From assembly GCA_000442015.1 (NCBI GenBank), contig KE560848.1, positions 157,389-221,388 of the forward strand: 64,000 bases of DNA, given 5' to 3'. The stretch comes from Rozella allomycis CSF55. Its lineage: Eukaryota. Below, piece by piece: positions 36,071 through 63,567 of the stretch. Under the pieces are notes generated by a model. That model was given only the letters and a program-made list of their open reading frames with translations, was not told the DNA's origin and did no database searches. The stretch's first letter is position 1. The number at the start of each line of letters is the position of its first letter. A program made the position numbers and the translations under genes.

Positions 36071-36176
36071 TTCTAACCGTCGTGGCGTAGTAACAGAGTG
36101 CAATTCAACAAAAACGAAGATGAAAAATAAAGTGTTAATAGAGATCAATATTAAATTTTTATTCATATCATATTTC

Positions 36177-37148
36177 TTACCAAAAGTGGAAACTAGCCTT
36201 TTCTGTTTCACTTTCGTCCTTGTACCCGGAATCAACAACCTTGGGGAAAGCGCAATTAGGGAATGAAAGCGTTCTTGGTATTGTGCTCACATTAGGATAT
36301 TCTTTTTTATTTTTTTGCGCAAGCTTCATTTCAGATCTTGAGCGCTTCAAGTTTGGATCTGGAGTTAATGTTTTCAATCCAGCGAAATCACGATTTCTTT
36401 TTTTAATTACATCTGATTTCAAATGCGACGGCCTGTGGCGCCCATGGAGTTTAAAATATAGTCCGCATGCATTGCAATACTGAGCACCATCCAATTTCCT
36501 CCACAGCGGAGTTTTATCAGTCTGGCAGTTTTGACAAACAACTACAAGCTTATGTTCAAGAGGCCTTTGCTCTGTTAATTGTAAATGAATGTTATGGATA
36601 GGAAAAAATGGATCGTTATCTCTTATAGCATTTGGGGGTGACTGGAAGTCTGGTTCTACCAATCGTGCTTTTTCTAATGAAATTGGTGGAATGTCGAAAT
36701 CAATTGGATATTCAATATCACATTTGTTATCTGAAACCTTGTCCAAGCAAATCATGTCCATCCATAGATTCTCATTGTCAAATATGGGCTTTTTACTTTC
36801 AACTGGAAATGATTTTTCCGACAATTTCCCTTTTCCTTTCTGAGTTTTTTCAATTACTATTGGCTCAGGCTTCATGATTGTTATAGGCGTCTTTTCTATT
36901 AGTGCAACCTTCTCCGCACATATGTCACTGAGAGATCGTTTGCTGTTATCTTTGTAATACCATAAACGCCAAGACAGGTTTTCGAAACGGCTTCCATCTG
37001 GCAAGTGATGCTTCACTTTGGTAAATACTTTCCAAGACTCTGACAAATCTTCTATTGAGTTGAAGGAACGAAAAGAATCGAATCCTTGTATGGTCAAGGT
37101 GACTGGAGACATGATCTGGGGAAGAGATAAGACAAGGGGTTTAGACAT
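36177..37148 (-). CDS. AreA/Gat1-type GATA factor with DUF1752 N-terminal domain
   Basis: WKVFTKVK..LPDGSRFENLSWRLW; CQNC-x16-CNAC GLYFKLHG..RP..LKSDVIKKRNR. Confidence 0.85.
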   Translation of the reverse strand: MSKPLVLSLPQIMSPVTLTIQGFDSFRSFNSIEDLSESWKVFTKVKHHLPDGSRFENLSWRLWYYKDNSKRSLSDICAEKVALIEKTPITIMKPEPIVIEKTQKGKGKLSEKSFPVESKKPIFDNENLWMDMICLDKVSDNKCDIEYPIDFDIPPISLEKARLVEPDFQSPPNAIRDNDPFFPIHNIHLQLTEQRPLEHKLVVVCQNCQTDKTPLWRKLDGAQYCNACGLYFKLHGRHRPSHLKSDVIKKRNRDFAGLKTLTPDPNLKRSRSEMKLAQKNKKEYPNVSTIPRTLSFPNCAFPKVVDSGYKDESETEKASFHFW

Positions 37149-37204
37149 GGTGTTTGGGTCATGTGAAATAAACACTAAAAATTGTTATTAATGTATACAA
37201 GAAT

Positions 37205-40014
37205 TTATTTTGGTGAAAAAACAATATCCACTACCTGCTGTAGTCTTTCGTAGTCTTTATGCATGGTATCATCTATTGTGTCTAGTTTTTTATCTCTGTT
37301 TTGCATATTCTTCAATTGATCTTGACTCTTTTCGGACAAGGTGCGATCTACTTTTTGATTCATTCTTTCAAATTCCAAACGTAATTTCTTTTCTGCAAAG
37401 AGGTCTTTACGAAGTTGATCCAGTTTTTCTTCTAGAAGTGTTTTTAATCTGATTGTTTCTTCTAATTCCTTGCGAACTAAATCTAAATCGTTGGCTATAA
37501 TATTGTTGGCCTCTCTAAACTGGGCGTTGGAATTCGAAAGTTTCTTAATTTCCTCTTTTAGATCTGAAACTTTGTTTGAAAGTGTGTTGACCAGGTTCTC
37601 TCTGGCCTGTGACAGCAATTTATGATCTTTTTCCATAGCCGCTTTCGAAGTTTGCGATTGATTATAAAGATCAGTCACTTGATCTAAGCCCGATTGTAGT
37701 TCATTATTTTGTTTGATCAAGTTATTCTTTTCCTTGACAAGTTCTTCTCTTTGGATTGAAAGATTATGAAAGTCCATTCTCAATTTCTTGAAATCCAATT
37801 CAGTTTCGTTATTTTGAAGAGTCAAGTTATCATGCTGTAAGATAAGATTTAAATGTGTTTCATTCAATGCTTGATGCTGATTGGTTAATTCTGCATGCTG
37901 GGCACGTAACTCTGATTGATCTGATCTCAAACGTGAAATAGTTTCCTCCAGGCCTTTAATTTTATTGGTAGAGGTATTTTGATAGTCTTTATATTCCAAA
38001 TGCAATGCATTATATTCTTCTTTTTTCTCTTTCAGCTCTTGACGTACATCATACACATGTTTGGTCAGGGCAATTTTATCATTTGTAAGTCCAGTCTTGA
38101 CCTCATTGAGTCTGTCTACTTCATTCTTAAAAGTCAGCTTCAGTTCTGTGTAATCTCGTTTGAATCTTTCTATTTCAACTAACAGCATTCTATTCTGTGA
38201 CATTTCCCTGTCCAATGCTGTTTGAGCTTCATTTAATTGCGACATCGCTTTTTCTCTCTTTTCTTGGTGAATCAAGGCATCATTTTCGGCTATTCTAACT
38301 TTTTCTTCAAGATCGATGATAATTTTATCATTATTCACAGCTTCATTTCTTCTTACTTCGTGAAGCTCCCTTACAGTGGAATCCAATAGATCATGCCGCT
38401 GAGTCATTTCTTTCAATGAAACTTTTAATCGAGCATTTTCAGAGGTAAACTTTTGAATTGTCGCGTCGTCTTCCTTTTTTACACTTTGAAGGATTGCAAT
38501 TTGTTTTCGAAGGTCATGAATTTGTACTTCGCTTTGTGAAAAACTTGTTTTGAATGACTCTGTATTATCGTTTAATTTCTTTTCTAATTCCTCTATTTTT
38601 GCCTTATCCAACAACTGCTTATCCATAAACTTTTGTATTTCAGTTTGTATTTGAAACAAATCTTGATGCAGCTGTTCATTTTCTTGATTATATTCATCTT
38701 TTTGAGAGTTAGACATGTTTAAATTTGCTACCAATAGCTCCATTTCCTCTTCAATCCCTTTCAATTTTTTCTGTGTTGCATTCGATTTTTCCATCACGTC
38801 ATTGTATTCTTTGGTCAATCGCTCCAAATTTCTTTGCAAAATGTTATTCCGTTGCTCCGCTTGTTCATTTCCTATTTCCGCTTGTCTTGCCATTGATGCT
38901 ATCTTTTCGTTTAGCTTTATGTAATCTTTCAATGAATCATGAAGCTTTGTTCTTGTATCCACAACTTGCTTCTCCAAATCTTTTATTTGATTTTCTTTCT
39001 GCATAACTTCCCTTTCCTTATCACCTATAACATTCCTCAGCTAAATAATGATCCATATTTCCATCTTACGTCTTTCTTTTCCGCTTCGGCATGGATTAGA
39101 CACGCCATTAATACTGACATTTCTTTTTTTAAAGTTCTGATGTCATGTTGGAGCAGACTTGCTTCCTTTTCTTGCCATTCCTCGGCTTTTATATAGTACT
39201 GCATGGATTTCGACAAGGCTTTACGAAGCTTCCTCACGTTTTCGACCTCCTTTTGTTCTGATTCTGTCTTTTCAAGAAGCATTTCTCTCAATCTTCCAAT
39301 TTCAGATGACTTTAATTGCAAAACATGCTTGTAAAGGTTCCCAGAAAAGGTTTCTTCGTGCGCTTGAAGTGAGCCAATGTTGTTTTCTGATAAATTAGCC
39401 TGCTCGAATACACTCTTTATAGTATCGATTTGATGCTTTTCGATGATTTTAGTCAACTTCCTAGCTCTTAAATCTCTTGCAATTTTTTCTCCTGGATCGG
39501 TATAGAATAGATTTTTGGGCTCGACTGGATCCTTTAAAAGCTCAAAAAAGGGCGGATGATTTTTACGCTTAGCATCAGACACTTCATCAATATCATTTGG
39601 ACTTGGAAGTTCTTTGCTCTGACTTTCCAAACAATGAGAATAGACATGCATCAATTCCTTTTGACAAGACTCGCAAACAATCTCAGAATAGTTGGATGTT
39701 AAAGATTTATGTTTCAAATGTAGTGTTCCTTGAATGTGGGTTTCATTTAGTTTATTTTCTTTAATAACTGGAAGTGCTCTATCTTTAACAGAAACTCCGC
39801 CATCAGGGGCGCTTCCCACTTTATGAAATTCATTGGTAATATTGTTAACTAAGGGTTCAAGCAAGACACCGTTCATGCTCTTTCTGGGTCTTTTACTCAT
39901 TCCATCCTGTGACGTTAACGAGTCCGCTTTACTACTTTTTGGGAAAAAATCTGGAGAATTGGTTGGTTTGGTCTGAAAATTAAGTGAGCCTTGTGGTACT
40001 TTCAATTCCGACAT
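37205..40014 (-). CDS. Long coiled-coil protein (about 920 aa), function unknown
   Basis: Two ORFs joined by a 29-nt intron; heptad-rich E/K/L/Q sequence. Confidence 0.75.
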
Positions 40015-40191
40015 TTTCGTTGCAGCAAAATTTGAGGTTGTCAAGGGACAGTAAAGGTAGAAATTATTTGTAATCCATGGATTTATTAAAAAATGTTTAT
40101 CAATGGCTTGACTTTAAGTGAATAATCGAGTAACTAGAATCCTCGTTTCAAATTGAAAAGATCTCTTAATCAAAATTAGGAAAAATCTGAA

Positions 40192-43100
40192 ATGGCGGAA
40201 AATCAACAACAGCGTGATGAAGAGAGTAATACACCGCAAACAAAGGATAACATTCCGAAAATAGGATACTTTGAACTGTATCGTTATGCTAGTTCTTTTG
40301 AAAAGACTATGATATTGGTTGGTATTCTATTTTCTTTTGCAAGTGGTACAATTTGCTGTATTGATAAATATTAGGATCATCTCTACCAATAATGACAAAA
40401 TTATTTGGAGGCATAATAAAAGTGTTTGGAACGTATGAAATGACTAGAAACAAGGACCAATTCAATAATGATGTCATTGTTTACTGTATCTATTTTGTGA
40501 TCCTTGGAGGTGCCAGTTTTGTTGTATCCTATTTATCAATGGTGCTTACATAATCATGAATTAATTAAGGCTGTTTTCATGTACACTGGGGAGAGACAAG
40601 TCCGCAGAATAAGAGAGAAATACTTTTCATCATTGTTGCAACAAGAAGTTGGTTGGTTTGACAAGCAAAACTCTGGAGAACTGGCAAGTCGTCTAAGCGG
40701 GTATCCGAATCTTATTAATTACAAATTAGTGACTTACAACTGATACAAGACGGTATATCTGAAAAAGTATCGATTGTTTTGGCATCAATGGCAACTTTTG
40801 TTGGCGGATTCATTGTGGCTTTTACCGAAGGTTAATTTTTTAACTTTTGTAAATATTAAGGTTGGCAATTGACATTAATCTTGTGTTGTGTCTTACCATT
40901 AATGGGCTTGACTGGCGCGATTATGGCAAAGTTTCTCTCTAAAGCTACTACTAATACACAGGACGCATTTGGAAAAGCAAGCGCTTTGGCTGAGGAGGTA
41001 TTTTCAGCTATTCGAACAGTTACATCATTTAATGGTCAAACAAGTGAAGTCAAAAGATATGACGCATGTTTGAATGAAGCTTTGAAACATAAAACGAAGC
41101 AGGCGAATATACAGGGGGTTGGGGTCGGCTTTATAACTTTATTTCTATTTTCGACCTATTCGCTTGCATTTTGGTATGGGAGCCAGCTCATTGAAAAGGG
41201 CGAATATGATGGAGGAAAGTTTATAACTGTATTTTTTGCCTTTATGATGGGTGCATTTTCAATTGGTAATGTGGCGCCTAACTTTGGAGCGTTTGGTTCT
41301 GCGCAAGGGGCTGCCTATAGAATATTTCAAGTTTTGGAACGAAAGCCTTTGATTGAAAAAAAGAAAGGCAAAGATTTGGAACAAGTTAAAGGTGAAATTG
41401 AATTTAGAAATGTTAAATTCAATTATCCAACAAGGCCTGAAGTTTCCATTTTGAAGGGAGTGAATTTGAAGATTAAACCAGGGCAAACCGTAGCTCTTGT
41501 AGGTAGTAGTGGATCTGGTAAAAAAATGTTTTGATTGATATAGGGAAATCAACGATGGTTCAACTAGTTCAAAGGTTTTATGATCCAATGGAGGGTCAAA
41601 TTTTGATTGATGGCCAAGATTTGAGGGATGTGAATTTGGAGTCCTTTCGCAGACATGTTGGCATTGTGAGTCAAGAGCCAATTCTGTTTAGAAATTCTAT
41701 AAAGAATAACATTGGCTTGGGGAAAATGAATTCATCGACGAAAGAGATAGAAGAGGCTGCATTACAAGCAAACGCTCTTGATTTTATTAATAAACTTCCA
41801 AAGGGATTTGATACCCTTGTTGGTGAAAGAGGCAGTTTAATGTCTGGCGGACAAAAGCAACGTATTGCCATCGCCCGTGCATTAATAAAAAACCCTTCAA
41901 TTTTACTGTTAGATGAGGCTACATCTGCACTTGATTCTGTTTCAGAAAAGGTTGTTCAATCAGCTCTTGATGGAGCTTCAAAAGGTAGAACGACCCTGGT
42001 AGTGGCTCATCGCTTATCAACGATTAAGAATGCAGATTTGATTGTAGTGATGCAACAAGGAGAGATTATAGAAACTGGCACTCATGAAGAATTGATAAAT
42101 AAAAAGGGCAAATATTATGAACTAGTAGAGGCACAATCGCTGCAGCAAGGGGATCAAGTTGCTACTGAAGCTGAAGAAATTATGCATTTAAAAGAGGAAG
42201 AAGAAACCAGACAAAGTTTAATAAAGCAAAAGGAAGAAGAAAAAGTTAAAGTTGAAAATAAAAAAGGGGATATTTGGAGGGTTTATAAAATGGCACTATC
42301 TGAATGGCATTTATTGTTAGTAGGGTTATTGGGGTCTATGGTATTGGGATCTATAATGCCCTTGTTTGGATTTGTTTTTGCAGAGATTTTAACAGTTTTC
42401 TTTTCATCTGACATGGTGAAACTTCGTAAAGATGCAGATTTTTGGTCTTTGATGTTTCTTTTGATAGCGATAGCATCATTCTTGGCGAATTACTTTAAAA
42501 TGGCGTTGTTTGATATTGCAGGGAATAGATTGACGTTGAGGATTAGATCGATGAGTTTTAAAGCCATGTTGAGTCAGAACATTGGATGGTTTGATGAAGA
42601 TAAGCATGCGACTGGAATTTTGACGTCCAAATTGAGTACAGAGGCTGAGTCGATCCAGGGTCTGACTGGAAGTTTTCTTGGAACGATTTTGCAGCTTGTT
42701 GCAACGATTGTTATTGGATTTATTATAGCATTTTCAAATAGTTGGCAACTAACTTTGGTTATTTTGTCGTGTCTTCCCCTTGTATCACTTGGCGGGTACC
42801 TTCAAGTGCGGGTGTTGAAAGGGTTTGATTCTAAAGCAAAGGCAATGTATGAAGATGCGAGTCAAGTGGCTACAGAAGCATTGGAGAACATTAGAACTGT
42901 GATTTCATTGTCCAGAGAAGGATATTTTGAACATGAATATCAAAGTGGATTGCAAGTCCCTTACAAGGTTGGTGTGACGAGAGCGTTCACGAGTAGTTTA
43001 GGACATGGGTTTGCACAATCAATTCAATTCTTTGCTTACACGTTGGCGTATTATTATGGATCGAGATTGATGATTGATGGAACGATTGATTTTTCAAATT

Positions 43101-44059
43101 TCAACAAAGTGGTGAACGCTGTAATGTTTACTGCTGCTTCTCTTGGCCAAATTGGATCTTTTGCACCAAATGCTTCCAAAGCTAAAATTGCCGCTGCAGA
43201 CATTTTTGAGATTATTGATAGAAAACCTTCAATTGACAATTCTGGAACAACAAACTTAGATAACCCTCAAGGCACAGCAGAGGTGAACAACGTCATTTTC
43301 AAATATCCCACAAGGCCTGATCAAATAATTTTAAATGGAATAAATCTTTCTGTGAAACAAGGACAAACCGTTGCTTTAGTTGGGGCTTCTGGGTGTGGAA
43401 AATCAACAATCATTCAACTGCTGGAAAGATTTTATGATCCTTTGGCTGGAAGTGTTTCTGTTGATGGAAATGATTTGAAATCTTTAAATTTATCTTCATT
43501 GAGAACTTGCATCTCATTGGTCAGTCAAGAAGTACGAAATTTCTCAATCTAAAAATAGCCTTTGCTTTTTGCTCGAACTTTAAGAGAAAATATATCTTAT
43601 GGGAAACAAGACGCGTCCATTGAAGAAATTAAAGATGCCGCAAAAGCTGCCAACATTGCAGACTTTATTGAATCTCTTCCTGATAAATATGAAACCCAGG
43701 CAGGTGAAAAAGGCACTCAATTAAGTGGCGGTCAAAAACAAAGAATTGCTATAGCACGTGCAGTAATGATTTTTATTGAAGTAAACTTCTAGTTGATCAG
43801 ACACCCTAAATTACTTTTGCTTGATGAGGCAACAAGCGCATTGGATACAGAATCTGAAAAAGTTGTTCAAGAGGCTCTGGACAACGCTTCCAAGGGTAGA
43901 ACTACAATTGTTATTGCTCATCGTCTTAGCACAATTCAAAACGCTGATGTCATTTATGTCTTCAAAGATGGATTGATTTTGGAAAAGGGTACTCATAGCC
44001 AACTTTTAGCCAACAAGTCGCTCTACTATGAGTTAGTCCAACAACAATCACTCAAATAA
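40192..44059 (+). CDS. MDR1: Full-length ABCB/MDR1 P-glycoprotein transporter
   Basis: Two TMD-NBD halves: [28 protein letters not shown] and [17 protein letters not shown]. Confidence 0.95.
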
Positions 44060-49377: not shown

Positions 49378-52300
49378 TTAGCCCTTCTTTGAGAGGAAAG
49401 GGATAGAGCCGAATTGTGCCAATGGCGGCAACTTGTCATTCTATAATAACAGCAAATAAAAAATTTTACCTTGGCGATAATGGGCTTCGTTTTGAATATT
49501 TTGTTGTAATTCTCTTCTCTATTTGAGAGTTCTAGCTTTACAAAATCCAATTCGCTCTATTCACAATCAATTTATGTATTACTTTTAAAAGAACAATTTG
49601 TTTCTTTTTGAAATCGCAATCATTTTTTAATTGATTGATCAAAGTTATGTCTTTTTCTCTTGGTGGCCTTGAATCAAACTTTTGCTTCCACTCCTGAACT
49701 TGATCCTGTAGTATCGATATCTTTGTGTTGAGATCATGTTGAGATTTCGAAAAATCTTTAATTAAGCTTTCAAGATCAGATTTGTGTTGCAGATTTATTT
49801 CATGCAAAGATTTCTCGAGCACATTTTTATGATCTGCTTCTAATTTATCTAAATTTTCTCGATATTCTATTGTTAAATTAGCAACTTTCTTTTCCATCTC
49901 TTCAATTGAAGAGGTTCGATTTACAAGTTGGTGATTTAATTGTTGGTTTTCATTCTTTATAAATTAAATATATAAAATTTACAAGCAGGTCTTTTATTTT
50001 AGAATTAAGATCTCTTGATTTTTGTTCAAGTTCTTTTTGCGATAAAATCAATCGATTTTCGATTTCTGTTAAGCTTTTTTCATACTTGGATATTTCCATA
50101 TTCTTTTCGTTTAACTCTTTTAGATTCTCACTTTTCAGTTCTTCAATTTGACGTTTTAATTGATTGACTTGCATTAAAGTCTCTTCTTTGTAGACATTGT
50201 TCTGCTATAAATTAAATATTAAATTTACTTTATTCATTTGAGTAATTTTCAATTCTTTTAATTCAGTTTCCAAAGAAATTATTCTGCTTTCGTATTCTGA
50301 CTGAATTTCCTCTTGCTTCTTTGTAAATTCTTTAAACCTTTGATTCTCAGACCCTAAAATTTTATTAATTTCATTTTGATTTTCTTTTTGAAGGTCATTT
50401 TTTATTCTTTCAATTTCAATTTTGTGATTTTCTAATGCCGCTTTGTAATTTTCCAATTCATTCAAATTGACTTTATGGAGTGATTCTATCTCTTTTTTTA
50501 ATCTTTCGATTTCCATATCTTTTTCTAGTATAAATTTATTTTCATTTTTCATCTTGTCTATCAATTCTTTATTAATTGATTCAACTTTGTCGAGTTTTGT
50601 GGCATACAATTGAGAATCTAATTCAAGTTTAATGATTTGGTCCTTTTAAAATAAAAATTAAAAATTACATCCAGAGTTTGCTTTATTAATTTAAAATTAT
50701 CCTCCAAGTCTTTTCTTTCCTGTTTAAATTTAAAACTCCTGATAGTTGAAAAAAGTTTATGAAATTTACATTTCAGTTTCAATCACATTTCTTTGATTTA
50801 GCAATGAATGAAAACTTTCTTCTTTCACTTTCTTAATTTCAATTTCATTTTTCTTTTCTGATTTGAGTAAATTATCGTTGAGAATCTACAATTGACAAGT
50901 ACCATTACCTTTACATTTAATTCACTCTTTAATTGCATGATTTCATTTTTCTTTTCATCCAATTCTTTATTTTTTTCATTAATTTCCTCTATTAATTTAT
51001 TTATTTTATTTTCTTTGAAAATATATCCTGTATCCCTATCCTTTATTTCTTGAATCAAGTTTATTATTCTATCATTTAAATTTTGTTCTTTTTGTTTAAA
51101 TTCTCTAGTTAATTCATCTTCTCTTTCCTTTGAATTTAGTTCGTTCTCTCTTTGCCTTTTTTCCCAATCCTTCTCCCGATTTTCTCTTTCTTGTTTAAAT
51201 TGAACTTCTAATTCAAAATATAAATTCTGGTATTGTTTAATTTCATTATCTTTTGAATTTAATACTTGTTGAAGTTTATCTTCAGACTCTATTAATAGCT
51301 CCCTTGATAATGTGGCTTCTTCTTCAATTCTATGTGAATTTCTAATTAACTCTTGTTTTTCACTGGAATATTCATCTATCGTTTTTTGTTTCTCAAATAA
51401 ATCATTTATTAAAGATTGCTTCTCACTCACCACTTTATTTAAATCCAACTTTACATTTTCATGTAATAAATTCAATTCTTCAATTTTAAATTTATATTCT
51501 TTATTCAATTCTTTCAAAGAGTCTGTCAATTTATTTTCTTTTAACAATTTTTCGTTCAGGCTTTTATTTGTTGCCTTGACTTCGATATTTTCATTTTCAA
51601 TGTTTCTATTTGTCACCCCAGTTATAATTTACTTGATCTTTATTTCTTGCTCTTGAAATGATGCTTCAAGCATTTCAAGATCTCTTTTTGTCATATTCAG
51701 TTCTTTTTCTATTTTTTTAATCTCTTTTTCCTTATTCTCTAACATTTCTTCATTCTGTCTTTTCTTTATTTCTAATTTCTTGTTCTTTTCATTTAAGCCG
51801 TTCAATTGGTTCTGGACGGATGCAAACTCGTCTTCTATTTTCATTATCTTTCCATTTAAGATTTTATTATCTTCTTCAATCTTCTTTTTTTCAATCAAAA
51901 CCTTTTTAATCTCCGTCTTCATCATTTCCTTGTCATGTTCGAAACTTGTTTTATTCTTGAAAATCGTGTCTGTTGCTTCCTTTAATCTTTCTTTCATTTT
52001 TTGAATCTCTTCTACGTTTCTCTCCTTTGATGTTAACAATTCTTCTTCGTAGTCTCTTTTCTTTTGCTCAAAGTCCCTTTAAATGCTGACATACCATTTT
52101 ACAAATGCAGTTGAATTATTTTATCGGCAAATTCTTTCTTTATTTCTTCTTCTTTAGCCTCAAATTGCATCTTTATCAAATCAATATTCTTCTTCATTTC
52201 CTCCTTTGTTTTATCCAATCCAATTTTAAACGTCTATTATCATCATTAACATATTTTACTTTTAAATTTTCACTCTCAACCTTTTTCTTTTCCAGTTCTT

Positions 52301-53028: not shown

Positions 53029-55148
53029 ATGTCTGCTTCGTGGAAAACCTTACTGATTCCTCCATTAGAAAAGGTTGAACACGTAATTAAATTGCCACAT
53101 GGCGCATCGTATAGTGATCCCTATAACTGGTTGCGTGACGACAATAAATCGAATTTGTCAATTCGTAAGCTTCTTGAGGTTCAAAATGAATACACCCAAA
53201 ATGTTATATCAAGAACAGGAATTAAGGATATCGAAGTAATAGTATAGCCTAATGTCAATAGCATGTTATTATTCAAAAAACTGAAGAAAGAAAGGCGAGT
53301 ACCAGTTTCTGGACTATACCATCATGGAATGTTGGTGATTACGCATATTACTTTGATAAAGAAACAGGAGAAAATTTATTAAGACAGAAGGATGGAGTGG
53401 AAGAATTGATTTTGCAGACCAGTGAATTTGAAGGAGATTTAGGGCACGTTGAAGTCCACCCTGACAATACATTTGTCGCATTTGTAGTTGACAATAAAGG
53501 CGATGAAAAATATACATTACAAATTAAAGTTCTGAAAAATAATACGATTTTGCCCTTTAAAGCACCAGTTAGTTCCAACGAACGAATTGTGCAATGTATG
53601 AAATGGATTAATAATGGAAAAGAATTGGCATTTATATATGGCGAAGATGCTAGAAGCTGCAGGCTGTACAAACTTGAGGATCAAACAGACATTGAAATAT
53701 ATGTAGAAAAAGATGTTTCATTTGCGTTAAACTTGGAAACCACAACAGATTCCCTGTATGTTTACTTAACTAGCCAGAGTTCGTCGTCTAATCAAGTTTT
53801 CATATTTGAAATGAATGGACTGATTCCTGTGTTTGAAAGAGATGAATACACAGAATGCACTGTAGAGCATCACCACGGATACTTTTATCTTAATTATCAT
53901 GATAAAAATTGTTTAAATTCCAAAATAGTTAAAGTCGAGAAGAATTTTGTTGGCGACAAAAGCAAATGGGAAACTGTTATTGCCTGTAGGGAGGACACGA
54001 TGATAATGTCGATGAATGTGTTAAAGGATTTTTTAATTTTGGTAACAATGAAGGACTGTGACAAACAAATTGAGGTTTACGAAATTATAGATGGAAAAAT
54101 AGTTGTTGAAAGCGGCCATAAAATTTGTTTTCCTTTTAATGAAGTCATTTACACCTTTTTCTTTGACAAGAGATTAGATTTTAATCGGCCATCATTTTCA
54201 GTAAACTACATGTCCTATATTACTCCACCTTGCATAATTGAGTATAATTTAGTTTCTAAACACTGGGATATCAAATCCAAATCAAATTTGCAAAACTTTG
54301 ACCCCAATGAATATCAATCTGAAAGAGTGTTTGCAAAATCACACGATGGAAAACAAATCCCAATATCTATGGTGTACAAAAAATGTTTTAAGACAAGGCC
54401 TATGCCTCTTTTACTGTAAATATGTTATGTCTATGATTTTAGATTTGGCTATGGTGCATATTGGTCTGCTCAACAACCCTGGTTTCTAGCATCTAGAATC
54501 TGTCTTTTAGATGCCGGCTTCATATTCGCTACTGCTCATGTTCGGGGTGGAACTGAAAAAGGAAGGCAGTGGGCCATTGACGGACAAAAGCTCAAAAAAA
54601 TTAATTCATTCCTGGATTATATTTCATGTGCAGAACATTTAATTGATATAGAGTATGCTTGCAGGAATAAGATTACAGGATGGGGAAGATCTGCAGGTGG
54701 GACATTAATAGCAGGTGTTATGAAAATGAGGCCCGATCTTTTTCGAGCAATTGTATTGGATGTTCCTTTTGCTGATGTGATTACTTCATTATCTGATTCT
54801 ACTATACCCTGGTCTGAATATGAGAGGAACGAATGGGGCAATCCTAATATCAAAGCAGAATATGATGTTATGAAAGAGTACAGTCCAATGAATGATATGA
54901 AAAAGGCCGTGTATCCTCACATTTTTATTGGTGCTGCTTGGAATGATGCCAGGGTACCATACTGGGAACCAGTAAAATTGTTGGCGTTGCTGAGAGAATC
55001 TCAAATGGACAAAGAGAAAGTTTCTCTTTTGTTAACAGATTTTGAAGGAGGCCATTATTCATTGTGGGCCAATGGACAAATCCCACTCCGATGGGCTTTC
55101 TTGATCTGGGCTGTTGACGGAGACAATAAAAACTTATCAAATTTATGA
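53029..55148 (+). CDS. Oligopeptidase B / protease II (S9A)
   Basis: DPYNWLRD, GYGAY, HVRGG, GRSAGG, DARVPYWEP, GGH. Confidence 0.9.
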
Positions 55149-55166: not shown

Positions 55167-57751
55167 TTATTTATTTAACATTTTTTCAATGATAGATATG
55201 GCATGATCAAGTGGAATGTGTTCAGTAATCCAACGTCTAGGTGCCACACTCAAGGCATGTTTTTGATCAATTTGAACATCGAGAATGTTAGAGTCATGGG
55301 CGCCTGGGCTAAACCCGATTCGAATGGAATATTCAAAGCCCGAAGTGTTGGATTTAAATCTTTCGTAAACTTCAAATGTTATTTGTGTCAAATAATCCAA
55401 TTCATCCCAATTTCCAATACTACATTCAAGACCGCCAAACCTAACAATATTCAATAAAGCGTGAACGTGAGATTCTTTGGTAAAGTAGAGGCGCGTACAA
55501 GGGTCAGTGGCGTGAATTTTAGCTTCATTTAAATCATCCAAAATTTGAGCGAGTAAGCGATTGGCAATAATTTTTCCAATTTCGACCTTTTCTTCTGGGA
55601 ACAAACCGAATTCTTGTGGCGCAATAAAATCAAAAAGAATTTTAGCTTTTCTTATCAAATCAGCCAGGGCGGCCTTTTCATTTGGGCAATTTTGATTTTT
55701 CACGAAAATTCTTTCAAAGAATTCACGATGGTGCAAAGCGTCATATTTCAAAGAATCGTAAAGTTCAGACACTTTAGAAGGATCAAAGTTATTAATTTCC
55801 ACGTCACAAAAGTCTTTGAATAGTTTTTCCCAACGTTCTTTGAACAAAATGGAGCTTTCAGCACAACACCAACGATGGGACAGAGAATCCACGTCCAAAG
55901 TATCAAAATTAGATCTCATGACTTGTCTCAAGTCCTTTAAAGTGATGAAAACTTCGTCCAGAGTAACTCTAGGGTTTTTGAATTCGGGATGAACGTTGAG
56001 GAATTGGACATTCTCAGGGATCTCATTTGATAATAAAATAGATAATAATCTCTTTTTAACTTTATCTAGCTTCTCCTTTGCATCAAAATTGTCGTCCAGC
56101 ATTTCTTTTTTGATTGAAAGAAAGTCATCAGGGAGCTCAGCCACAAACATTAACGCTTTTGAAAAAATATCCGCAGTGGCCATGACTCTTCTTTCAGAAC
56201 TTGTGTAAACTTTAACATCATCAATCATTTTTCTATTCATTAATAATAAATCTTTTCGAAGGTTTTCACCAAAATCCTTTGAATGATGACGACCTGCATG
56301 GGTGAATTCTCCTCCCCATTTGACAATCAGTTGGGCCTTTTCAATTTCTCTTGATTTTGAGTAGGAAGGTTTAATTTGAACTTTTGTTCCCGGGCTCTTC
56401 TTTTTCTTTGATAAAATTTCCATTAATTGAAGCAACTTTGATTTCTCTTCAATGCCCAGCGACAAGGAAGCTTCAGCAGCCTTTTCAATTCTCTCCAAGC
56501 CATCGGGGTTTCTTATCATCGTTTCTTCCTTTCCCTTTACAATTAAATCAAGAAATGGCGCACTGGAAACATTAAATTTCATCTTTTGTTTAGGCGTTCT
56601 ATCAGCATGACGAAATATCGAAATGAAGCTTTTCAATTTCCATTGATTTTCATTCAAGGGTTCCTTCAATATCGTCGTTCGTCTTTTCCGAGCAATCTTT
56701 AAAAATGTTTGGCTCATAATTTTTGCACACATATCATAATAATTGTCATTCCCTTTAACAAAAGACCATCCATTAACGTCAATAACCATCGACTTCGACC
56801 CACATCGGACAAGGTCAAAGCCACAAATGGTCTGGCCAAATGCCATACTCACCCTACGTGCCAATTCTTGCTCTTCTTCACTCAAATCAGTTAAATGCCT
56901 AACCTCTTTCCCATCAGTATTCCTCCTAACAATCCCATCCACGACAGGCGATTTTCTTGTTTCTGCGTGGGCATAATATGGGCCTATCGTGTAGACTTTA
57001 ATATCTTCGGCTTTTTCAACATCAATAAACGTTTCATATATAAAAGATCCCTCCTTTCGGATTTCCCACTCATCGGGAAAAAATTCACTAGACTTGTTTC
57101 CAACTTTTCTAAACAGTTTTCGAACACCACCGCCCATGCTCTCAGGATAATAAATATAAATATTATGATCTTCTCCATCCACTGGTTTCTCCACAAATGG
57201 TTTCTCCAATCTTTGTTTGCCAACCATTATGGTATCTTTATCAATTTGGATTACATTTTCACGAGAAAAATTCGTCATGTTTCCCAAGTCTATTCCTAGA
57301 TTTTTATTCAATTCTTCTATCACACCCTTGTAATACTTTGGTCCCTCATCCCTATTCACAATTATTCGCTTCGGCGTAGGCACATCAATTGCATCCAACA
57401 CTGACAAAACCCATCTATACTTTGTTACATCCGTTATTACCTTCTATCCCATAACAACTGTTGAAGTGGCAAATCATTAATACAGAAAGGTCTACGCAAT
57501 GCCACATACTCTATAGCCTTTTGTAATGGAAATCCCTTTGAAAAAAATGAAATTAAAAATTGACACTGGGGCCATTCTTCTATGGGATCATCAAGAATAG
57601 TCTTGTCGCCAAAAATAACAACCTCAAAGTCACTCGTAGCAGTTATACGGTCTAAAATATTTCTCATAGGCTTAGAACGGGCTTTTGTATCCATTGCACA
57701 TACCCCTATAATAAGCTTACGCAAAGACGAAGATCGACTATTTTCAGCCAT
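55167..57751 (-). CDS. VIP1: PP-InsP5 kinase/phosphatase Vip1 (PPIP5K)
   Basis: IGVCAMDTKARSKPM, AETRKSPVVDG, RHADRTPKQK, TRLYFTKESH. Confidence 0.97.
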
Positions 57752-57789: not shown

Positions 57790-58416
57790 TTATTCATCAT
57801 CACTTTCAATTAAATTTTGCTTTCTAATACCTCCATATTCAGAGTAGTCTTCATTTTCTTCAAATCTAATGACACCAGATTTTGCAATTCTTCTAGCAAG
57901 TGCAATTGTCTCAAAATCATCATTGTTTCCAATTTCTGCAAAACCAACAATTTGGTCTACAGGCTTTCGATCTTTTACAATGACAAGAGTCGGCAAGACT
58001 CGAACACCTAATCGTTCACAAAGAAATGGACTCTTTTCAGCGTCGATTTTCACAAATTTGGCCTCTAAATGGGCTTTTGACAAGGCCTCTAAATGTCTAT
58101 CAAGAATTTTGCATCTAAAGGTCGATGTTCTATAAAAGTGACAGACCAAGTCTTTTGATTTTTTCCCTTCCTCGAAAAAGGCCTTTTCACTGAGCAGCTC
58201 GCTATACGATCCATGACCTAAAGATCGCCAATGTGCTTTTTGAAGAGCTGCATTTTTCATTTGTTGGATGCGTTGTCTCCTGATAGACTCGAGGCTGTTT
58301 TCATCAGCATTTTCAAGCTCCCTGATTTTCTCATCTATTTGAGCTTCTACCACACTAGCAGCTTGTAATATGGACTCTTCCAGTGCCTGGGCGTACATAT
58401 CAGGCATCCCGTTCAT
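57790..58416 (-). CDS. PLP1: Phosducin-like protein, TXNDC9/Plp1 type
   Basis: GHGSYSEL, VCHFYRTSTFRCKILDRHL, IDAEKSPFLCERL.VRVLP. Confidence 0.9.
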   Translation of the reverse strand: MNGMPDMYAQALEESILQAASVVEAQIDEKIRELENADENSLESIRRQRIQQMKNAALQKAHWRSLGHGSYSELLSEKAFFEEGKKSKDLVCHFYRTSTFRCKILDRHLEALSKAHLEAKFVKIDAEKSPFLCERLGVRVLPTLVIVKDRKPVDQIVGFAEIGNNDDFETIALARRIAKSGVIRFEENEDYSEYGGIRKQNLIESDDE

Positions 58417-58521: not shown

Positions 58522-61500
58522 TTATTTTAGAAGCAAAGAGATAACCACTGCGATAATAAAAGTAACGATACCATATAGAGCTCGACTAGATGTATTTGGT
58601 ATATCTGAAACTAAATTGTTTGGCGTTGCATTTTCTGCATTCTTTTTTTCAGAGCTAGAAGGTTTCGAAGTTGATTCGCTGGAAATGTTTATTGCACTCT
58701 TTGTCGATTTATCCTCTTGAGTAGTTTGAGTTTCACTATGTAATTACCACTAAAAATCGTTACACTGCGTCAGTTAAGTCGTAATCATAATACGATTCTT
58801 GTTTTGCTGCCTTTCCATGGTTGCTAATATTCTCTTCGCCATACGGCATTTCAGTTGGACGTTTAGTATTGGTAGTTTTTTTGCTCTTAGCATGTATTCC
58901 ATTGTTATCATAGATATCATGATCATGGTTTTTTGTGCACCGAAGAGTTTTGAAATCCTTCTCGTCCTCCTCATCATTTTGTTCGTTATTTTCGTCCTCA
59001 GCTTCATTATCATTATCACCGTCATTGTAGATATCTGCATCGTAGTCATCTAATGAATCTCTATCATTTTTGCTACCCTCGTTTTCACTTTTATTGTCTT
59101 CTGTCGNTATAATTATTGCCTTTACATGTTTTAGTATGAGTAATTGTAGTTTTAGCGCCATCTACTGTTACTATTGTGGTTTTTGTTGAAGTGACAGTGC
59201 TATTTTCAGCATCCTCGTTCTCGTCATCTTTTTCATTGTTGTTGTAGCCATCATTGTCATCATTTTCATCTTCTTCTTCGTCGTTTCCATCCTCGTTATC
59301 ATTTTTATCGTCTAACAAATTGAAATTTTATCGTTACAAGTTTTAGTGTGGGTAATGGTTNGTTCGGCGCAATTATGGTAATCGTCTAATAGAGAATTTT
59401 TATTATCTTTACATGTTTTAGTATGGGTAATTGTAGTTGTAGCGCCATCTACTGTTACTATTGTAGTTTTTGTTGAAGTGACAGTGCTATTTCCAGCATC
59501 TTCGTTCTCGTCATCTTTTTCATTGTTGTTGTAGCCATTATCGTCATCATTTTCATCTTCTTCTTCGTCGTTTCTATCCTCGTAATCATTGTTATCATCT
59601 AACAAATTGAAATTTTATCGTTACAAGTTTTAGTGTGGGTAATGGTTGTTGTAGTGCCACCAACCGTTACTATCAATGTTTTCGTTGAAGTGACAGTGCT
59701 ATCACCGCCCTCTTCTCCGTCATTTTTTTCATTCTCATCATTTCCATCTTCATCTTCGTCATTATCGTTGTCGTCAAAGTCAATATTTCCATCATCTAAC
59801 AAAATGTAATTTTATCTTTACATATTTGTGTGTCATCGCTGACGTCATCTTCTTCATTGCTATCGTTGTGGAAGTCATCATTNCTAACAAAATCTAGCTT
59901 GATCTTTACATATTTGTGTGCGTGTAATAGTCGTTGTAGTGCCATCCATAGTTAATATTTTAGTTATCGTTGATGTGACAGTATTATCACTTGCATCTTC
60001 GCTGCCATCATCTTCTTCATTGTTATCGTTGTAGAAGCTATCATTGTCATCATCTAACAAAATTTAATATTATGTATACATGCCTTCGTGCGAATAATTG
60101 TCCTTGTAGTACCATCTAGGGTCACCATTGTAGTCATCGTTGATGTAACATTATTATCACCTGAATCATCGCTGACGTCATCTTCTTCATTGCTATCGTT
60201 GTAGAAGTCATCATTGTCATCATTTCCATCTTCCTCCTTGTCGTTATTGTCCTCGTCATCACTATTATCTTCAGCATTGTCATCATCTAACAAAATTCTA
60301 TATGAACGTTACAATTTTTGGTGCGAGTTATTGTCGTTGTAGTACCTTCATAGTTAGTTTTAGTTTTTGTCAAGGTAACGTTATTATCATTATTTTTGGA
60401 AGTTGTACTACTTTGTGGTGATCTTGAAGTGCTGCTGGTAGTGCCGGTTTTTGATTCAGCAAACGTGTTTTCAACTACATTTTCGTTTTCATCATTCTCA
60501 TTCTCATCTTCGTCGTTGTAGTAGTCTTTTTCATCCGTCCCATCTTCGCCTTCCTCATTATCGCTGCTTTCATTGTCATTATCAATATCATACTCATCAT
60601 TTATATCGCCTAACAAAATATAGTTCAATATTTACGANAACCGCCATCTTCTTCGTCATTTTTTTCATTCTCATCACTTCCATCTTCATCTTTGTCATTA
60701 ACGTTGTCGTCATAGTCATCATTGCCATCATCTAACAAAATCTAGTTTTATCTTTACATATTTGTGTGCGTGTAATAGTCATTGTAGTGCCATCTACAGT
60801 TAATATTTTAGTTATCGTTGAAGTGACAGTATTATCACTTGCATCTTCGCTGTCGTCATTTTCGTCATTGTTATCGTTGTAGAAACTATCATTGTCATCA
60901 TCTAACAAAATTTAATATTATCTTTACATGTCTTCGTGCGAGTAATTGTCCTTGTAGTACCATCTAGGGTCACCATTGTAGTTATCGTTGATGTAACATT
61001 ATTATCGCCTGCATCATCGCTGACGTCATCTTCTTCATTGTTATCGTTATAGAAGCCATCATTGTCATCATTTCCACCTTCCTCGTTGTCTTTATTGTCA
61101 TCGTCATCACTATTATATTGAGCATTGTCATCATCTAACAAAAATTAGTTTTGCCTTTACAAGTTTTAGTATGAGTTATTGTCGTTGCAGTACCTTCATA
61201 ATTAGTTTTAGTTTTTGTTAAGGTATCATTATTGTCATTATCTTTGGAAGTTGTACTACTTTGTGTTGATCTTGAAGTGCTGCTGATAGTGCTGGTTTTT
61301 GAGTCCGTAAACGTGTTATCAACTAAATCTTCATTTTCATCATTCTCAATCTCATCTTCGTCGCTGTAGTAATCTTTTCCATCCGTTCCATCTTCGTCGT
61401 CCTCATTATCGCTGCTTTCCTCGTCATTATCAATGTCATACTCATCATTTATATCGCCTAACAAAATATAGTTCAATATTTACGAGTGTGAGTAGCTGTT

Positions 61501-62304
61501 GTTGTAGCATCACTTTCGTTAACAGTGTTAGTACTTGTGGAGGAATGGGTAAAGTTTTCATCATGTGTCGAAGAGTTTGTGGACGTTATTGACGCGGAAT
61601 TATTCTCCGATTTTGTCGAACTGAATGTATTTGAAGAGTTCGAAGTTGTTGTATTTTCTTCGCTTTCATCATGATTATCTTCCTCATCATTATAATGATC
61701 TTTTCATATTCAAAGTGATGATTAAGATACCATGAGAGCTGTCATTTGAATGTTTGTTCTTTTCATCACATTCCTCCGTTTCCCCGTCCTTGTGGAATCT
61801 AAAATTCTTTTGGAAGTTGAAGTTGAATGAATGCCTTTGTTTTTCATCACATTCGACAGTTTCGCCATCTTGGTGTTTTCTAAAACCCGTTTTAAAAATT
61901 TTTTGTATATTTTGCGCCAAACTATCATGAGAACTCTCTGTGTTTTCTAAAACATTGCAAAATATTGATTACTAGAATGAAAAACATTATTGCTTCCTGT
62001 AAATCTGTGCTTATTAGTCTCATCGCATTCTTGAGTTTCCCCATCTACATGATTTCGAAAAGTGTTGCCTATGTTGTTCCAATCGTTCGTAACACGGTTT
62101 TGCCCATTAAAGTTACCCCCTTGGCTTTGTATCGGTTTTCTTTGAATCCCTCCTGAATTCATCGAGTTTGAATTATATGCTGAACCCTTTGAATTGTTGT
62201 CTGTAAATCCAATTTACAAATACCTTACCTGTGTTACAAGTGCCACAGCTTAAGGCAGTATCGATTAGAAAAAATATCAAGCAAATTAAGGTTCTTGAAT
62301 ACAT
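58522..62304 (-). CDS. Secreted, probably GPI-anchored Asp/Asn/Thr-rich repetitive surface protein with many cassette exons
   Basis: Signal peptide MYSRTLICLIFFLIDTALS; C-terminal ...PNTSSRALYGIVTFIIAVVISLLLK*; repeated exons separated by about 26-nt GTA...TTGTTAG introns; four Ns inside. Confidence 0.75.
59100..61483 (-). repeat. Tandem exon-intron cassette array with an approximately 850-bp higher-order duplication
   Basis: 60054-60636 closely matches 60902-61483; 59125-59311 closely matches 59413-59598. Confidence 0.85.
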
Positions 62305-62357: not shown

Positions 62358-63567
62358 TTAGCGCCCTCTGTTTTTGATAAAAATTGAAGTTAGATTCCCA
62401 AGTATTCCTTTGTCATATATGTTTTCAATATCTTTAACTGTATATACGGTCCTTAAGGATGATTCACTACTCATCGTTTTCAAAGGAATTTGAATAGATT
62501 TCCCTGATTTCAAATGAACGTCTACATCTGACCATTTAAATGATTCATTGGTTGTGATACCTCTACATATCATTTGTAAATGATAGATTGTAAAAACACA
62601 TACGACGACCGATACCAGTAATGTAAATAAGAATATCATAAGTAAAGCGGGTTCTTTTGGAGTTAATGACTAAATTTTTTTAGAAGAATTATTACAATAT
62701 ACTTTTCATAAAAGTGTAATGGTCTATATTCTCCTTTTCCTGACATGATCAACCATGAGCCAATATCGATCTGAGTCCATATGGACTTTATTATGCAATT
62801 GCAAGAGAAACAGACGTAAATGCAGCTGATAGTTAAAAAAATCAGGTATGCTATAAAGTAGATATGGTTATTCATTCCCACGCAATTGTTTATCCATGCG
62901 CAATGATGATCATGAAGAGATATACATGAATCGCACAATGAACAATGTTTTGAACGAGCAGGTCTTATGTAGAGCAAATTAAATGATGTACTTTGGAAAC
63001 AAGCAAGTCCTGCATTCATTATCAGGGAAATACAAAACATAATCAAATTCGAACATTTCAAGCATTTTTCTGTGGTTCTGATGGGTAATTATTCCTGGGT
63101 CTGTAGTGCTGGCTTTATAGAATGACCATAGGCATGCTACCACGACAAAAGGTAAGATAACACTATAAGTTGTGTGCGATCAGATTCGTACTATGTTTGG
63201 AGGCTACCAAAGTGAATATTAGGCAAATATTTTTTTGCCGGAATGTAAAATAGGCAGAGTGTTCCCAAATACAATATAAGAAATGTTATCTCTATAGAAT
63301 TACATATCTAAATACTTGTAACAATGGATGTTTCTTATTAAATAGATACAAAACTGTATCTTTAGTTAATACGGCAATCTTTTGACCTCCCAATTTTTGC
63401 AAGAGTATGCTTTTAAGATCTCATGAATTATATTACAATAAAAGATTAAAAATTTCTTCTGTTATGAAATGATGGAATTTTCCTATTAAAGAATTTGGAT
63501 ACGATGGGCCAAATAACAAGGCTATAATTAGAACTGTGAAACCAAGAACCAAAAAGAAAAGTATCAT
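62358..63567 (-). CDS. SWF1: DHHC palmitoyltransferase, Swf1/ZDHHC4 type
   Basis: LFGPS..NSLIGKFH, HPLLQ, KPARSKHCSLC...HDHHCAWINNCVG, TTNESFKW, NIYDKG. Confidence 0.88.

What the first reader, a model, noticed from the sequence alone, without database searches (positions are those of the whole stretch)
58522..62304. GPI-type surface protein assembled from duplicated symmetric exon cassettes
Seen: the apparent short ORFs (MLDD...FC*) are really exons. Each encodes a D/E/N-rich tract plus a Thr motif like VTSTxTxxVTVDGTTTTITHTKT, and is bounded by homologous, about 26-nt phase-1 introns (T|GTAAAG...TTTTGTTAG|AT). About a dozen units of types A-B-C-D-A'-B'-C'-D'-E-E' lie between a signal peptide and a hydrophobic GPI-like tail. 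Every cassette is phase 1-1, so skipping or unequal crossover keeps the frame. Inference: a variable-length adhesin or cyst/spore-wall protein, possibly Ca2+-binding and diversified by splicing or recombination. Ns at 59107, 59361, 59883 and 60637 make the copy number uncertain.
Basis: partly seen in the sequence, partly recalled or inferred. Interest (0 to 1): 0.7.

Follow-up and report, generated by a model that had tools for sequence, protein, structure and literature searches.

The report
Modular acidic surface-protein gene, mis-scaffolded array
This is a real, many-exon gene for a secreted, very acidic, threonine-rich protein built from repeated "exon plus tiny intron" modules, but the number of modules printed in this assembly is not reliable and other samples carry a shorter version.

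Summary
On the minus strand (62304..58522) 18 exons join into one reading frame through 17 GT..AG mini-introns: 12 of 17 are exactly 26 nt and 16 of 17 are phase 1. All nine full cassettes are homologous. Each encodes a D/E/N-rich tract that AlphaFold2 leaves disordered, plus a Thr-rich beta-hairpin with pLDDT 88-94. The only hydrophobic segments are an N-terminal signal-like one and one at the extreme C-terminus.

The array as printed is a scaffold. All four Ns sit at homology breaks. At two of them, and at an unrelated N at 12799, an exactly 50-nt exact repeat abuts the N, which is a k-1 contig-overlap signature. Contigs of two other runs bridge a shorter in-frame form, A-B-C-D-E. All four runs put 116 other letters where the window has 59105-59361. 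The primed cassettes (about 91% identical) may be allelic arms rather than tandem copies.

No homologue or Pfam family was found. No RNA data were available. The function, a GPI-type surface coat or adhesin, is inferred only. The short form carries a 1-nt loss that would remove the tail. Earlier scan notes did not cover this gene.

The parts
58522..62304 (-). Whole coding gene as assembled: 18 exons, 17 mini-introns. The conceptual product is 1109 aa as printed in the window.
62245..62304 (-). Signal-peptide-like N-terminus: first 20 residues, with a hydrophobic core and small residues at -3/-1 before residue 20.
   Evidence: Kyte-Doolittle windows above 1.6 occur only at residues 1-9 and 1089-1095. 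The cleavage site is my reading; no SignalP was run.
61731..62200 (-). Exons 2-3: N/S/G-rich N-terminal region with three copies of the motif H.DGET.ECDE..[KR]H, at 62051-62007, 61875-61831 and 61794-61750.
   Evidence: motif at residues 76, 126, 153. No Pfam, Atlas, PDB or homologue match. AF2 on exon 3 alone gave mean pLDDT 47.5, so it is uninformative.
61484..61699 (-). Exon 4: Ser/Thr-rich unique exon before the cassettes.
   Evidence: Run X2 has an in-frame 6-letter insertion behind 61546.
60639..61483 (-). Cassette set 1: intron 4, A (E5, 297 nt), B (E6, 207 nt), C (E7, 144 nt) and the 5' half of D (E8), each preceded by a 26-nt phase-1 intron.
   Evidence: Present in all four runs laid, and bridged in one 10,245-nt contig of X5.
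59884..60637 (-). Cassette set 2: A' (E9), B' (E10), C' (E11) with their introns. It is a separate assembler contig lying between N60638 and N59883. It is about 91% identical to set 1.
   Evidence: Its first 50 nt (minus strand) are an exact repeat of 61485-61436. It is absent from X5 and X6. In X1 and X2 its depth is about 0.6-0.85 of the flank depth.
59822..59883 (-). E12: a 62-nt chimeric exon (middle like B', end like C) that breaks the frame. It is probably an exon cut at the contig join N59883.
   Evidence: The E12-i12-E13 5' path is present in X1 (183-nt contig, depth 143) but nearly absent in X2 (bin depth 1.34).
59413..59795 (-). D' (E13, 171 nt), intron 13 and E (E14, 186 nt). The 3' half of E13 plus E14 are present in all four runs.
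   Evidence: AF2 on E14 with alignment A1 gives a beta-hairpin at residues 41-49 and 52-60, with pLDDT block means 94, 93, 88.
59108..59360 (-). Separate contig between N59361 and N59107: 23 nt like the end of E13, intron 15, E' (E16) and the start of intron 16.
   Evidence: Its first 50 nt (minus strand) exactly repeat 59647-59598. The bin 59204-59337 has depth 44 in X1 and 43 in X2, against flanks of 171-288, and 0 in X5 and X6.
59104..59362 (-). Stretch where the window is wrong or incomplete. In all four runs a contig goes from 59362 through 116 other letters to 59104. The first 24 nt of 'E15' plus those 116 letters plus E17 stay in frame as one exon.
   Evidence: joint table. The frame arithmetic is my own: 24 + 116 - 2 = 138 = 46 codons.
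58764..59097 (-). E17: acidic, non-repeated C-terminal region.
   Evidence: No homologue found. All four runs lack 3 letters at 59075.
58522..58735 (-). E18: Ser/Thr-rich stalk, a possible omega region (..PNTSS..), an 18-residue hydrophobic tail (58578-58525) and the stop codon.
   Evidence: In X5 and X6 one letter of the T7 run at 58643 is missing, which would end the frame 40 residues early, before the tail.

Best explanation
This is a genuine, lineage-restricted gene of a tiny-intron eukaryote. Earlier notes of this scan name the organism as Rozella allomycis; I did not verify that independently.

The product enters the secretory pathway through an N-terminal signal. It is extremely acidic (pI about 4) and Thr/Ser/Asn-rich, so it is probably heavily glycosylated. 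It ends in a short hydrophobic tail of the kind that is exchanged for a GPI anchor.

Its body is a string of modules. Each module is one exon that encodes a disordered D/E/N linker followed by a Thr/Val/Ile beta-hairpin. Each is preceded by a 26-nt phase-1 intron. The modules arose by repeated duplication of an exon-plus-intron unit, so any gain or loss of a unit keeps the frame.

The most likely role is a mucin-like coat or adhesion protein at the parasite surface or the host-parasite interface. This is inferred.

The exact array printed in the window is a scaffolding product of at least five contigs joined by single Ns. The shortest documented form has one set, A-B-C-D-E. The primed cassettes are either allelic arms of a non-haploid genome or extra copies in some haplotypes.
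For: Shown:
- The spliced frame, with intron lengths and phases.
- Homology of all nine full cassettes.
- Coding constraint between the cassette sets: pooled pN/pS 0.53, with introns diverging (13 of 104) at about the synonymous rate of 0.136.
- The three indels inside E2, E4 and E17 seen in other runs have lengths 9, 6 and 3.
- Composition: D+E 26%, N 13%, S+T 24%, pI 4.05, 24 N-X-S/T sequons, and only two hydrophobic segments, one at each end.
- AF2: the linker is low-confidence and the hairpin has pLDDT 88-94.
- Scaffold artefact: all 4 Ns lie at homology breaks. Exactly 50-nt exact repeats abut N60638, N59361 and the unrelated N12799, that is 3 of the window's 6 Ns.
- No laid contig is reported across any N.
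- An X5 contig of 10,245 nt and an X6 contig of 939 nt join 60639 to 59702, skipping 936 letters. This makes one complete 171-nt D exon.
- Depths: in X2 set 1 is 105-106 and set 2 is 118-119, against flanks of 171-215. In X1 the two paths into the 3' half of D are 143 and 157, against 300 in total.

From the literature: R. allomycis is reported as non-haploid with heterozygous SNPs (PMC6784888, passages read).
Against: - No RNA evidence for any splice junction or for expression (one search lists no RNA holder).
- No SignalP or NetGPI run. The GPI reading is from sequence shape only.
- The X5 and X6 contigs carry a 1-nt shorter homopolymer in the last exon. It would truncate the protein before the tail. 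So either the anchor is dispensable or that allele is defective.
- Depth does not cleanly fit pure alleles. The two sets sum to about 1.2-1.4 times the flank depth in X1 and X2.
- X1 and X2 show no half-depth variants in the flanks. However, Logan contigs drop minor variants.
- The organism name rests on earlier AI notes. I checked only its consistency with 35% GC and 26-29 nt introns.
- The source organism's own proteins do not appear in the protein database. Paralogues in its own genome therefore could not be sought.
Confidence: 0.6

Rival explanations
1. The array is truly tandem as printed (A-B-C-D5'-A'-B'-C'-...-D'-E-E'). It would be an old duplication of an 848-bp four-cassette block and of a 287-bp E block. 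The shorter form in X5 and X6 would then be a deletion by unequal crossover between the two D units.
For: - The two sets differ by about 9% (67 of 746) with pN/pS 0.53, as expected of old paralogues.
- Both sets are present in X1 and X2, which differ from each other in flank letters.
- X1 and X2 have a contig going from intron 11 (59884) into a third, E8-like D start (60722 onward, with two changes at 60677 and 60680). So C' is followed by a D unit, as a repeat array predicts.
- The two E8-type variants sum to about 305 in X1, but only about 157 enters the 3' half of D. One E8-type unit therefore leads elsewhere.
Against: - No contig bridges any proposed tandem junction.
- The junctions coincide with Ns, and the pieces after N60638 and N59361 begin with exactly k-1 = 50 shared letters. 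That is set by the assembler, not by biology.
- Each set has roughly half to two-thirds of the flank depth instead of the full depth.
- E12 breaks the frame.
Confidence: 0.3
2. The protein is not GPI-anchored. It would be a soluble secreted acidic protein (for example a low-affinity Ca2+ buffer or a matrix or wall component), or a type-I membrane protein with a one-residue cytoplasmic tail.
For: - The spacer between the candidate omega site and the hydrophobic stretch is short (my reading).
- The X5 and X6 allele would lack the tail altogether.
- 39% of residues are D, E or N.
Against: The tail lies at the extreme C-terminus, is 17-18 residues long and is preceded by small residues (N-T-S-S). 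There is no cytoplasmic domain. There is no EF-hand or other Ca2+-binding family match at E<=1.
Confidence: 0.2
3. The region is a decaying or non-functional repeat (a pseudogene) whose open frame is accidental.
For: - No homologues anywhere.
- A frame-breaking 62-nt exon.
- A frameshifting 1-nt loss in one allele.
Against: - Seventeen consecutive GT..AG introns keep one frame over 3.3 kb.
- pN/pS is below 1.
- The exact 26-nt intron length is kept in diverged copies.
- The indels seen between runs in E2, E4 and E17 are multiples of 3.
- The frame break sits exactly at a contig join.
Confidence: 0.04

Closest known systems
Fungal GPI-anchored cell-surface adhesins with intragenic tandem repeats (Flo, Als and Epa families). 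Their general description is recalled. The reviews PMC8621652 and PMC6023314, and PMC8457840 on amyloid-type beta-sheet sequences in Flo11, were seen only as a search listing and abstracts.
   Same: N-terminal signal, a central Ser/Thr-rich repeat region, a C-terminal GPI-type tail, repeat number that differs between isolates, and short Thr/Val/Ile beta-prone segments.
   Different: No sequence or Pfam relationship, and no PA14 or Ig-like N-terminal domain. Each repeat unit here carries its own spliceosomal mini-intron. The linkers are extremely acidic. The organism reportedly lacks a wall in its feeding stage (recalled).
Symmetric phase 1-1 exon modules of extracellular proteins (the exon-shuffling or exon-duplication class described for animals; recalled, no paper read)
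   Same: Secreted protein; every module is flanked by phase-1 introns, so duplication, loss or skipping keeps the frame.
   Different: The introns are 26 nt, and the modules are only intragenic duplicates of one ancestral unit. There is no sign of shuffling between genes: tblastn of 10 exon peptides gave 74 hits, 0 of them outside the gene.
Tandem arrays of duplicated mini-introns reported by earlier notes of this scan in the same genome (e1-7126704, e1-7126428)
   Same: Same genome, same 26-31-nt intron type, and tandem duplication of units that contain a whole intron.
   Different: Those arrays duplicate introns without any exon between them. Here the unit is an intron plus a 144-297-nt coding exon.
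GPI-anchored Thr-rich mucins of parasitic protists (for example trypanosome mucins; recalled, no paper read)
   Same: Signal peptide, Thr-rich O-glycosylation-type core, GPI-type tail, a polymorphic lineage-specific gene, and a parasite surface coat as the presumed role.
   Different: No homology. The long D/E/N tracts and regular beta-hairpins are not features of those mucins.

Membership tests
GPI-anchored proteins (general class) | N-terminal ER signal peptide | tested here: met
   A hydrophobic window is present at residues 1-9 onward, with a basic residue before it. No dedicated predictor was run.
GPI-anchored proteins (general class) | Hydrophobic stretch at the extreme C-terminus, preceded by a short polar spacer and a small-residue omega site, with no cytoplasmic domain | tested here: met
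   The last 40 residues end in ..PNTSSRA, then a 17-residue hydrophobic run, then K. The choice of omega site is my reading. In the X5 and X6 allele a 1-nt loss removes this tail.
GPI-anchored proteins (general class) | Actual lipid anchor on the mature protein; GPI transamidase present in the organism | not testable with these tools
   No whole genome is held.
Flo/Als/Epa-type fungal adhesins | Recognisable N-terminal ligand-binding domain (PA14/Flo5-like or Ig-like Als) | tested here: not met
   Pfam scan of 10 exon translations at E<=1 found no such family. The Atlas gave no usable hit for E2 or E3.
Flo/Als/Epa-type fungal adhesins | Ser/Thr-rich tandem repeats between the N-domain and the GPI signal, variable in number | tested here: met
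   for the repeats. A shorter in-frame form exists in X5 and X6.
EF-hand or other defined Ca2+-binding families | Match to a Ca2+-binding domain profile | tested here: not met
   No EF-hand or related Pfam hit at E<=1 on any of the 10 exon translations. Low-affinity binding by acidic tracts remains untested.
Symmetric 1-1 exon cassettes | Phase-1 intron on both sides and exon length divisible by 3 | tested here: met
   Met by 11 of 12 cassette exons. The exception, E12, abuts N59883.
Symmetric 1-1 exon cassettes | Splicing shown at the RNA level; alternative inclusion of cassettes | not testable with these tools
   No RNA holder was listed. All runs laid are DNA-type contigs that keep the introns.

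The most novel reading that the evidence does not exclude
The locus is a hypervariable surface-coat gene in a non-haploid, largely clonal intracellular parasite. Exon-plus-mini-intron cassettes act as recombination modules. Several structural alleles coexist: a one-set form, a form whose cassette set is about 9% diverged, and a form with an extra partial cassette. An A7 homopolymer in the last exon toggles the protein between an anchored and a released form. Together these would give the parasite both length variation and anchor variation at the host interface.
Probability: 0.2. Interest if true: 0.6.

Novelty: new member of a known kind. Interest (0 to 1): 0.35.

Why it matters
If the product really coats the parasite, it is a candidate molecule of the host-parasite interface in a lineage close to the root of fungi and microsporidia, where almost no surface proteins are known. 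The locus also gives a clean example of a protein that grows by copying exon-plus-mini-intron units. On the practical side, single Ns in this assembly mark contig joins with k-1 overlaps and can create false tandem duplications. Repeat counts read from this assembly should therefore not be trusted without long reads.

Tried and rejected
- A regular-expression count of tiny-intron-like strings in the rest of the window showed no excess over shuffles. The pattern was too narrow, so I inspected ORF junctions directly instead.
- The whole genome is not held, so I could not search for paralogues or for GPI-pathway genes.
- The word-based homologue searches with exon 3 and exon 17 ('longer') found nothing.
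- The profile of the nine cassettes against 1.84 billion representative proteins gave 1 protein at E=1e-4 (P0001, 493 aa). It shares only a 16-residue stretch in a different repeat, and I rejected it as a relative.
- The metagenome scan matched 138 pattern stretches. Two loci (L001, L002) passed tblastn. I read only L002: it is 47-48% GC and the match is a short DGAATTITHT-type segment in a bacterial-style ORF. I rejected both loci.
- The protein Atlas gave no usable hit for exon 2 or exon 3.
- The PDB sequence search gave only an E=0.65 chance hit.
- AF2 on exon 3 alone gave mean pLDDT 47.5, which is uninformative.
- The complex prediction with four copies of cassette E returned 'no answer'. 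It is reported here only.
- No RNA holder was listed among the sequencing runs.
- The neighbour-protein search meant to place the organism gave a best hit of 61% identity, unnamed. The window's own protein was not listed, so I could not confirm the taxon this way.
- Paper searches for Rozella introns and for a Rozella GPI or secreted protein inventory gave nothing usable.
- Earlier-findings look-ups by words, by sequence and by place (near) returned nothing for this gene.
Full report
**What is in the sequence.**
- The region reads as a gene on the minus strand.
- Stop-to-stop ORFs are short and sit in shifting frames. They join into one frame if 17 GT..AG mini-introns are removed.
- My model has 18 exons, from the ATG at 62304 to the stop at 58524-58522.
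- Intron lengths are 28, 26, 31, ten times 26 (i4-i13), 27, 26, 28 and 28. So 12 of 17 are exactly 26 nt.
- 16 of 17 introns are phase 1; the last is phase 2.
- For the last two introns I chose acceptors that differ from my first pass, which had given an in-frame stop. The chosen ones are a 28-nt intron ending ..CAGAAG and a 28-nt intron GTAACG..ACATAG, and they keep the frame.
- Read unspliced, all 12 of the 26-nt introns stop the frame at or before their own acceptor TAG.
- Tiny introns are normal in this window. At 8 of 10 inspected junctions between adjacent long ORFs of other genes, a GT..AG candidate of 26-29 nt sits at the break (frames not checked).
- The uniform size is therefore a property of the genome. 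The sequence similarity among the cassette introns comes from duplication.

**The protein as assembled.**
- The conceptual product is 1109 aa, with pI 4.05, D+E 26%, N 13%, S+T 24% and 24 N-X-S/T sequons.
- It has only two hydrophobic segments. One is the first roughly 20 residues. The other is the last 18 residues, preceded by ..PNTSSRA.
- Exons 2-3 carry three copies of a motif, H.DGET.ECDE..[KR]H. Exon 4 is Ser/Thr-rich.
- Exons 5-16 are the cassettes. Exon 17 is acidic and unique. Exon 18 is a Ser/Thr stalk plus the tail.
- All nine full cassettes align with one another. Each has an acidic D/E/N tract with a conserved aromatic pair, then a Thr-rich motif ending ..DGTT.TIT[HR]TKT. The A type has a 27-residue Ser/Thr insert.
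- AlphaFold2 on cassette E with that alignment leaves the acidic part at pLDDT 55-59. It folds residues 41-49 and 52-60 into a beta-hairpin, with pLDDT block means 94, 93 and 88.

**Evolution of the cassettes.**
- Set 1 (A, B, C plus introns) and set 2 (A', B', C') differ at 67 of 746 compared positions.
- Pooled pS is 0.136, pN is 0.072 and the ratio is 0.53. The introns differ at 13 of 104 positions and keep exactly 26 nt.
- This is what coding sequence under relaxed purifying selection looks like. It argues against a dead repeat.
- E and E' differ at 10 of 184, and their upstream introns are identical. Tandem Repeats Finder reports period 287 with 94% matches.
- No similar exon lies elsewhere in the 64-kb window. 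tblastn of 10 exon peptides gave 74 hits, 0 of them outside the gene.

**The assembly problem.**
- All four Ns in the gene sit exactly where homology switches.
- On the minus strand, the sequence directly after N60638 and after N59361 begins with an exact repeat of exactly 50 nt, copied from 61485-61436 and 59647-59598.
- An unrelated N at 12799 has the same exactly-50-nt repeat next to it. So 3 of the window's 6 Ns show it.
- I read this as the k-1 overlap of a k=51 de Bruijn assembly (inference). On that reading, the pieces between the Ns are separate contigs, or branch arms, that a scaffolder strung together.
- The 'junction' exons are then products of those joins. They are E8 (a D unit cut after its acidic half), E12 (62 nt, frame-breaking) and E15 (48 nt, chimeric).

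**Independent contigs.** I laid Logan contigs of four runs from four studies. X1 and X2 carry organism label A. X5 and X6 carry label B, which the run table lists as the same species label.
- All contigs keep the introns, so they are DNA-type.
- (a) One 10,245-nt contig of X5 and a 939-nt contig of X6 join 60639 directly to 59702, skipping 936 letters. This removes intron 8, A', B', C', E12 and the 5' half of E13. It fuses E8 to the 3' half of E13 into one 171-nt D exon, in frame.
- (b) In all four runs a contig runs from 59362 through 116 other letters to 59104. The first 24 nt of 'E15', those 116 letters and E17 then form one in-frame exon. The window therefore lacks sequence at N59107.
- (c) X1 and X2 have a contig from intron 11 (59884) into an E8-like D start (60722 downward, two changes). 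So C' is followed by a D unit, not by E12 as printed.
- (d) The E12-i12-E13 5' path is present in X1 at depth 143 but nearly absent in X2 (1.34).
- (e) Depths. In X2 the flanks are 171-215, set 1 is 105-106 and set 2 is 118-119. In X1 the flanks are 278-288, A-B is 143, A' is 245 and C' is 170. In X1 the two ways into the 3' half of D are 143 and 157, out of 300.
- The two sets thus sum to roughly 1.2-1.4 times the flank. That is closer to alternatives (1x) than to tandem copies (2x), but it fits neither cleanly.
- (f) No contig is reported across any N.
- Ahrendt et al. 2018 (PMC6784888; passages read) report R. allomycis as non-haploid, with a triploid pattern and heterozygous SNPs. A figure legend in PMC10845963 calls it diploid.
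- If the organism is that species, allelic arms merged in tandem are a natural explanation.
- I cannot exclude that some haplotypes do carry both sets in tandem.

**Variation that bears on function.**
- Indels between runs inside E2, E4 and E17 are 9, 6 and 3 letters long. Those downstream of the stop are 1, 1 and 8 letters.
- There is one exception in the last exon. X5 and X6 lack one letter of the T7 run at 58643. After applying the reported variants, the frame ends 40 residues early, before the hydrophobic tail.
- So the short allele would encode a secreted but unanchored product, or be defective, unless this is a homopolymer error shared by two runs.

**What it is related to.**
- Nothing detectable was found. 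There was no Pfam family at E<=1 on 10 exon translations.
- The word-based searches with exon 3 and exon 17 gave no hit.
- The profile search of 1.84 billion representatives gave one 16-residue chance match.
- The metagenome scan gave two chance matches in bacterial-type ORFs.
- The Atlas and the PDB sequence search gave nothing.
- A control search with the neighbouring TXNDC9/phosducin-like gene found 163 relatives, but not the window's own protein.
- The source organism's proteome therefore seems to be missing from these databases. Paralogues within its genome remain untested.

**Mechanism (inferred).**
- Signal peptide, acidic Thr-rich modular body and C-terminal tail together give the architecture of a GPI-type, heavily glycosylated surface protein.
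- Each module would contribute a flexible, negatively charged spacer and a short Thr/Val/Ile hairpin.
- By analogy with fungal adhesins, such hairpins could zip together, or with those of neighbouring molecules. This is a recalled analogy and was not tested. The complex prediction gave no answer (see Tried and rejected).
- Because every module is phase 1-1 and carries its own intron, recombination between modules changes length without breaking the frame. The in-frame short form in X5 and X6 is direct evidence that such forms exist.
- Diversification by alternative splicing has no support. It is also unlikely in a genome of 26-nt introns, where retention rather than skipping is expected, and retention here hits a stop.

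**Verdict.**
- The gene is a lineage-specific member of a familiar kind, the repeat-bearing secreted or GPI-type surface glycoproteins. The modest twist is that the repeat unit includes a mini-intron.
- The copy number and the 'duplicated' layout in the window should not be taken at face value.
- Earlier notes of this scan on the same genome describe tandem mini-intron arrays and name the organism. None covers this gene.

Noticed in passing
window 12749-12864: An N at 12799 is flanked by the same exactly-50-nt signature: 12749-12798 is repeated at 12815-12864. It is probably a false mini-duplication made at a contig join, far from this gene.
   Followed up: partly
window 59386-59412 (minus strand): Intron 14 is 27 nt (a multiple of 3) and has no stop in frame. 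It is the only intron here that is both a multiple of 3 and stop-free. Its retention would simply add 9 residues.
   Followed up: partly
window 59075: All four laid runs lack 3 letters that the window has here, inside exon 17. This is a likely small error or variant of the assembly.
   Followed up: no
window 57793-58416 (-), 62663-63088 (-), 55167-57443 (-), 40860-43552 (+), 53262-55148 (+), 16615-18318 (-): The neighbours are ordinary eukaryotic housekeeping genes: TXNDC9/phosducin-like, DHHC palmitoyltransferase, a histidine-phosphatase plus ATP-grasp (VIP1-like) protein, an ABC transporter, prolyl oligopeptidase, and transportin-3/importin-13. The locus is therefore not in an obvious gene-family cluster.
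   Followed up: partly
window 36000-40100 (minus strand): Two long adjacent ORFs (37205-39040 and 39037-40113) lie in a stretch with strongly negative AT skew (-0.15 to -0.27), like the finding. The 611-aa ORF has no Pfam family.
   Followed up: no
window 50001-52000: A low-GC island (25.5% against about 35%) with GC skew -0.31 and AT skew -0.34. It holds a 267-aa ORF on the minus strand (50825-51628).
   Followed up: no
window 61546 and 62120: In-frame length variants occur in the non-repeated exons. Run X2 has 6 extra letters in exon 4. Runs X5 and X6 have 9 extra letters in exon 2.
   Followed up: no
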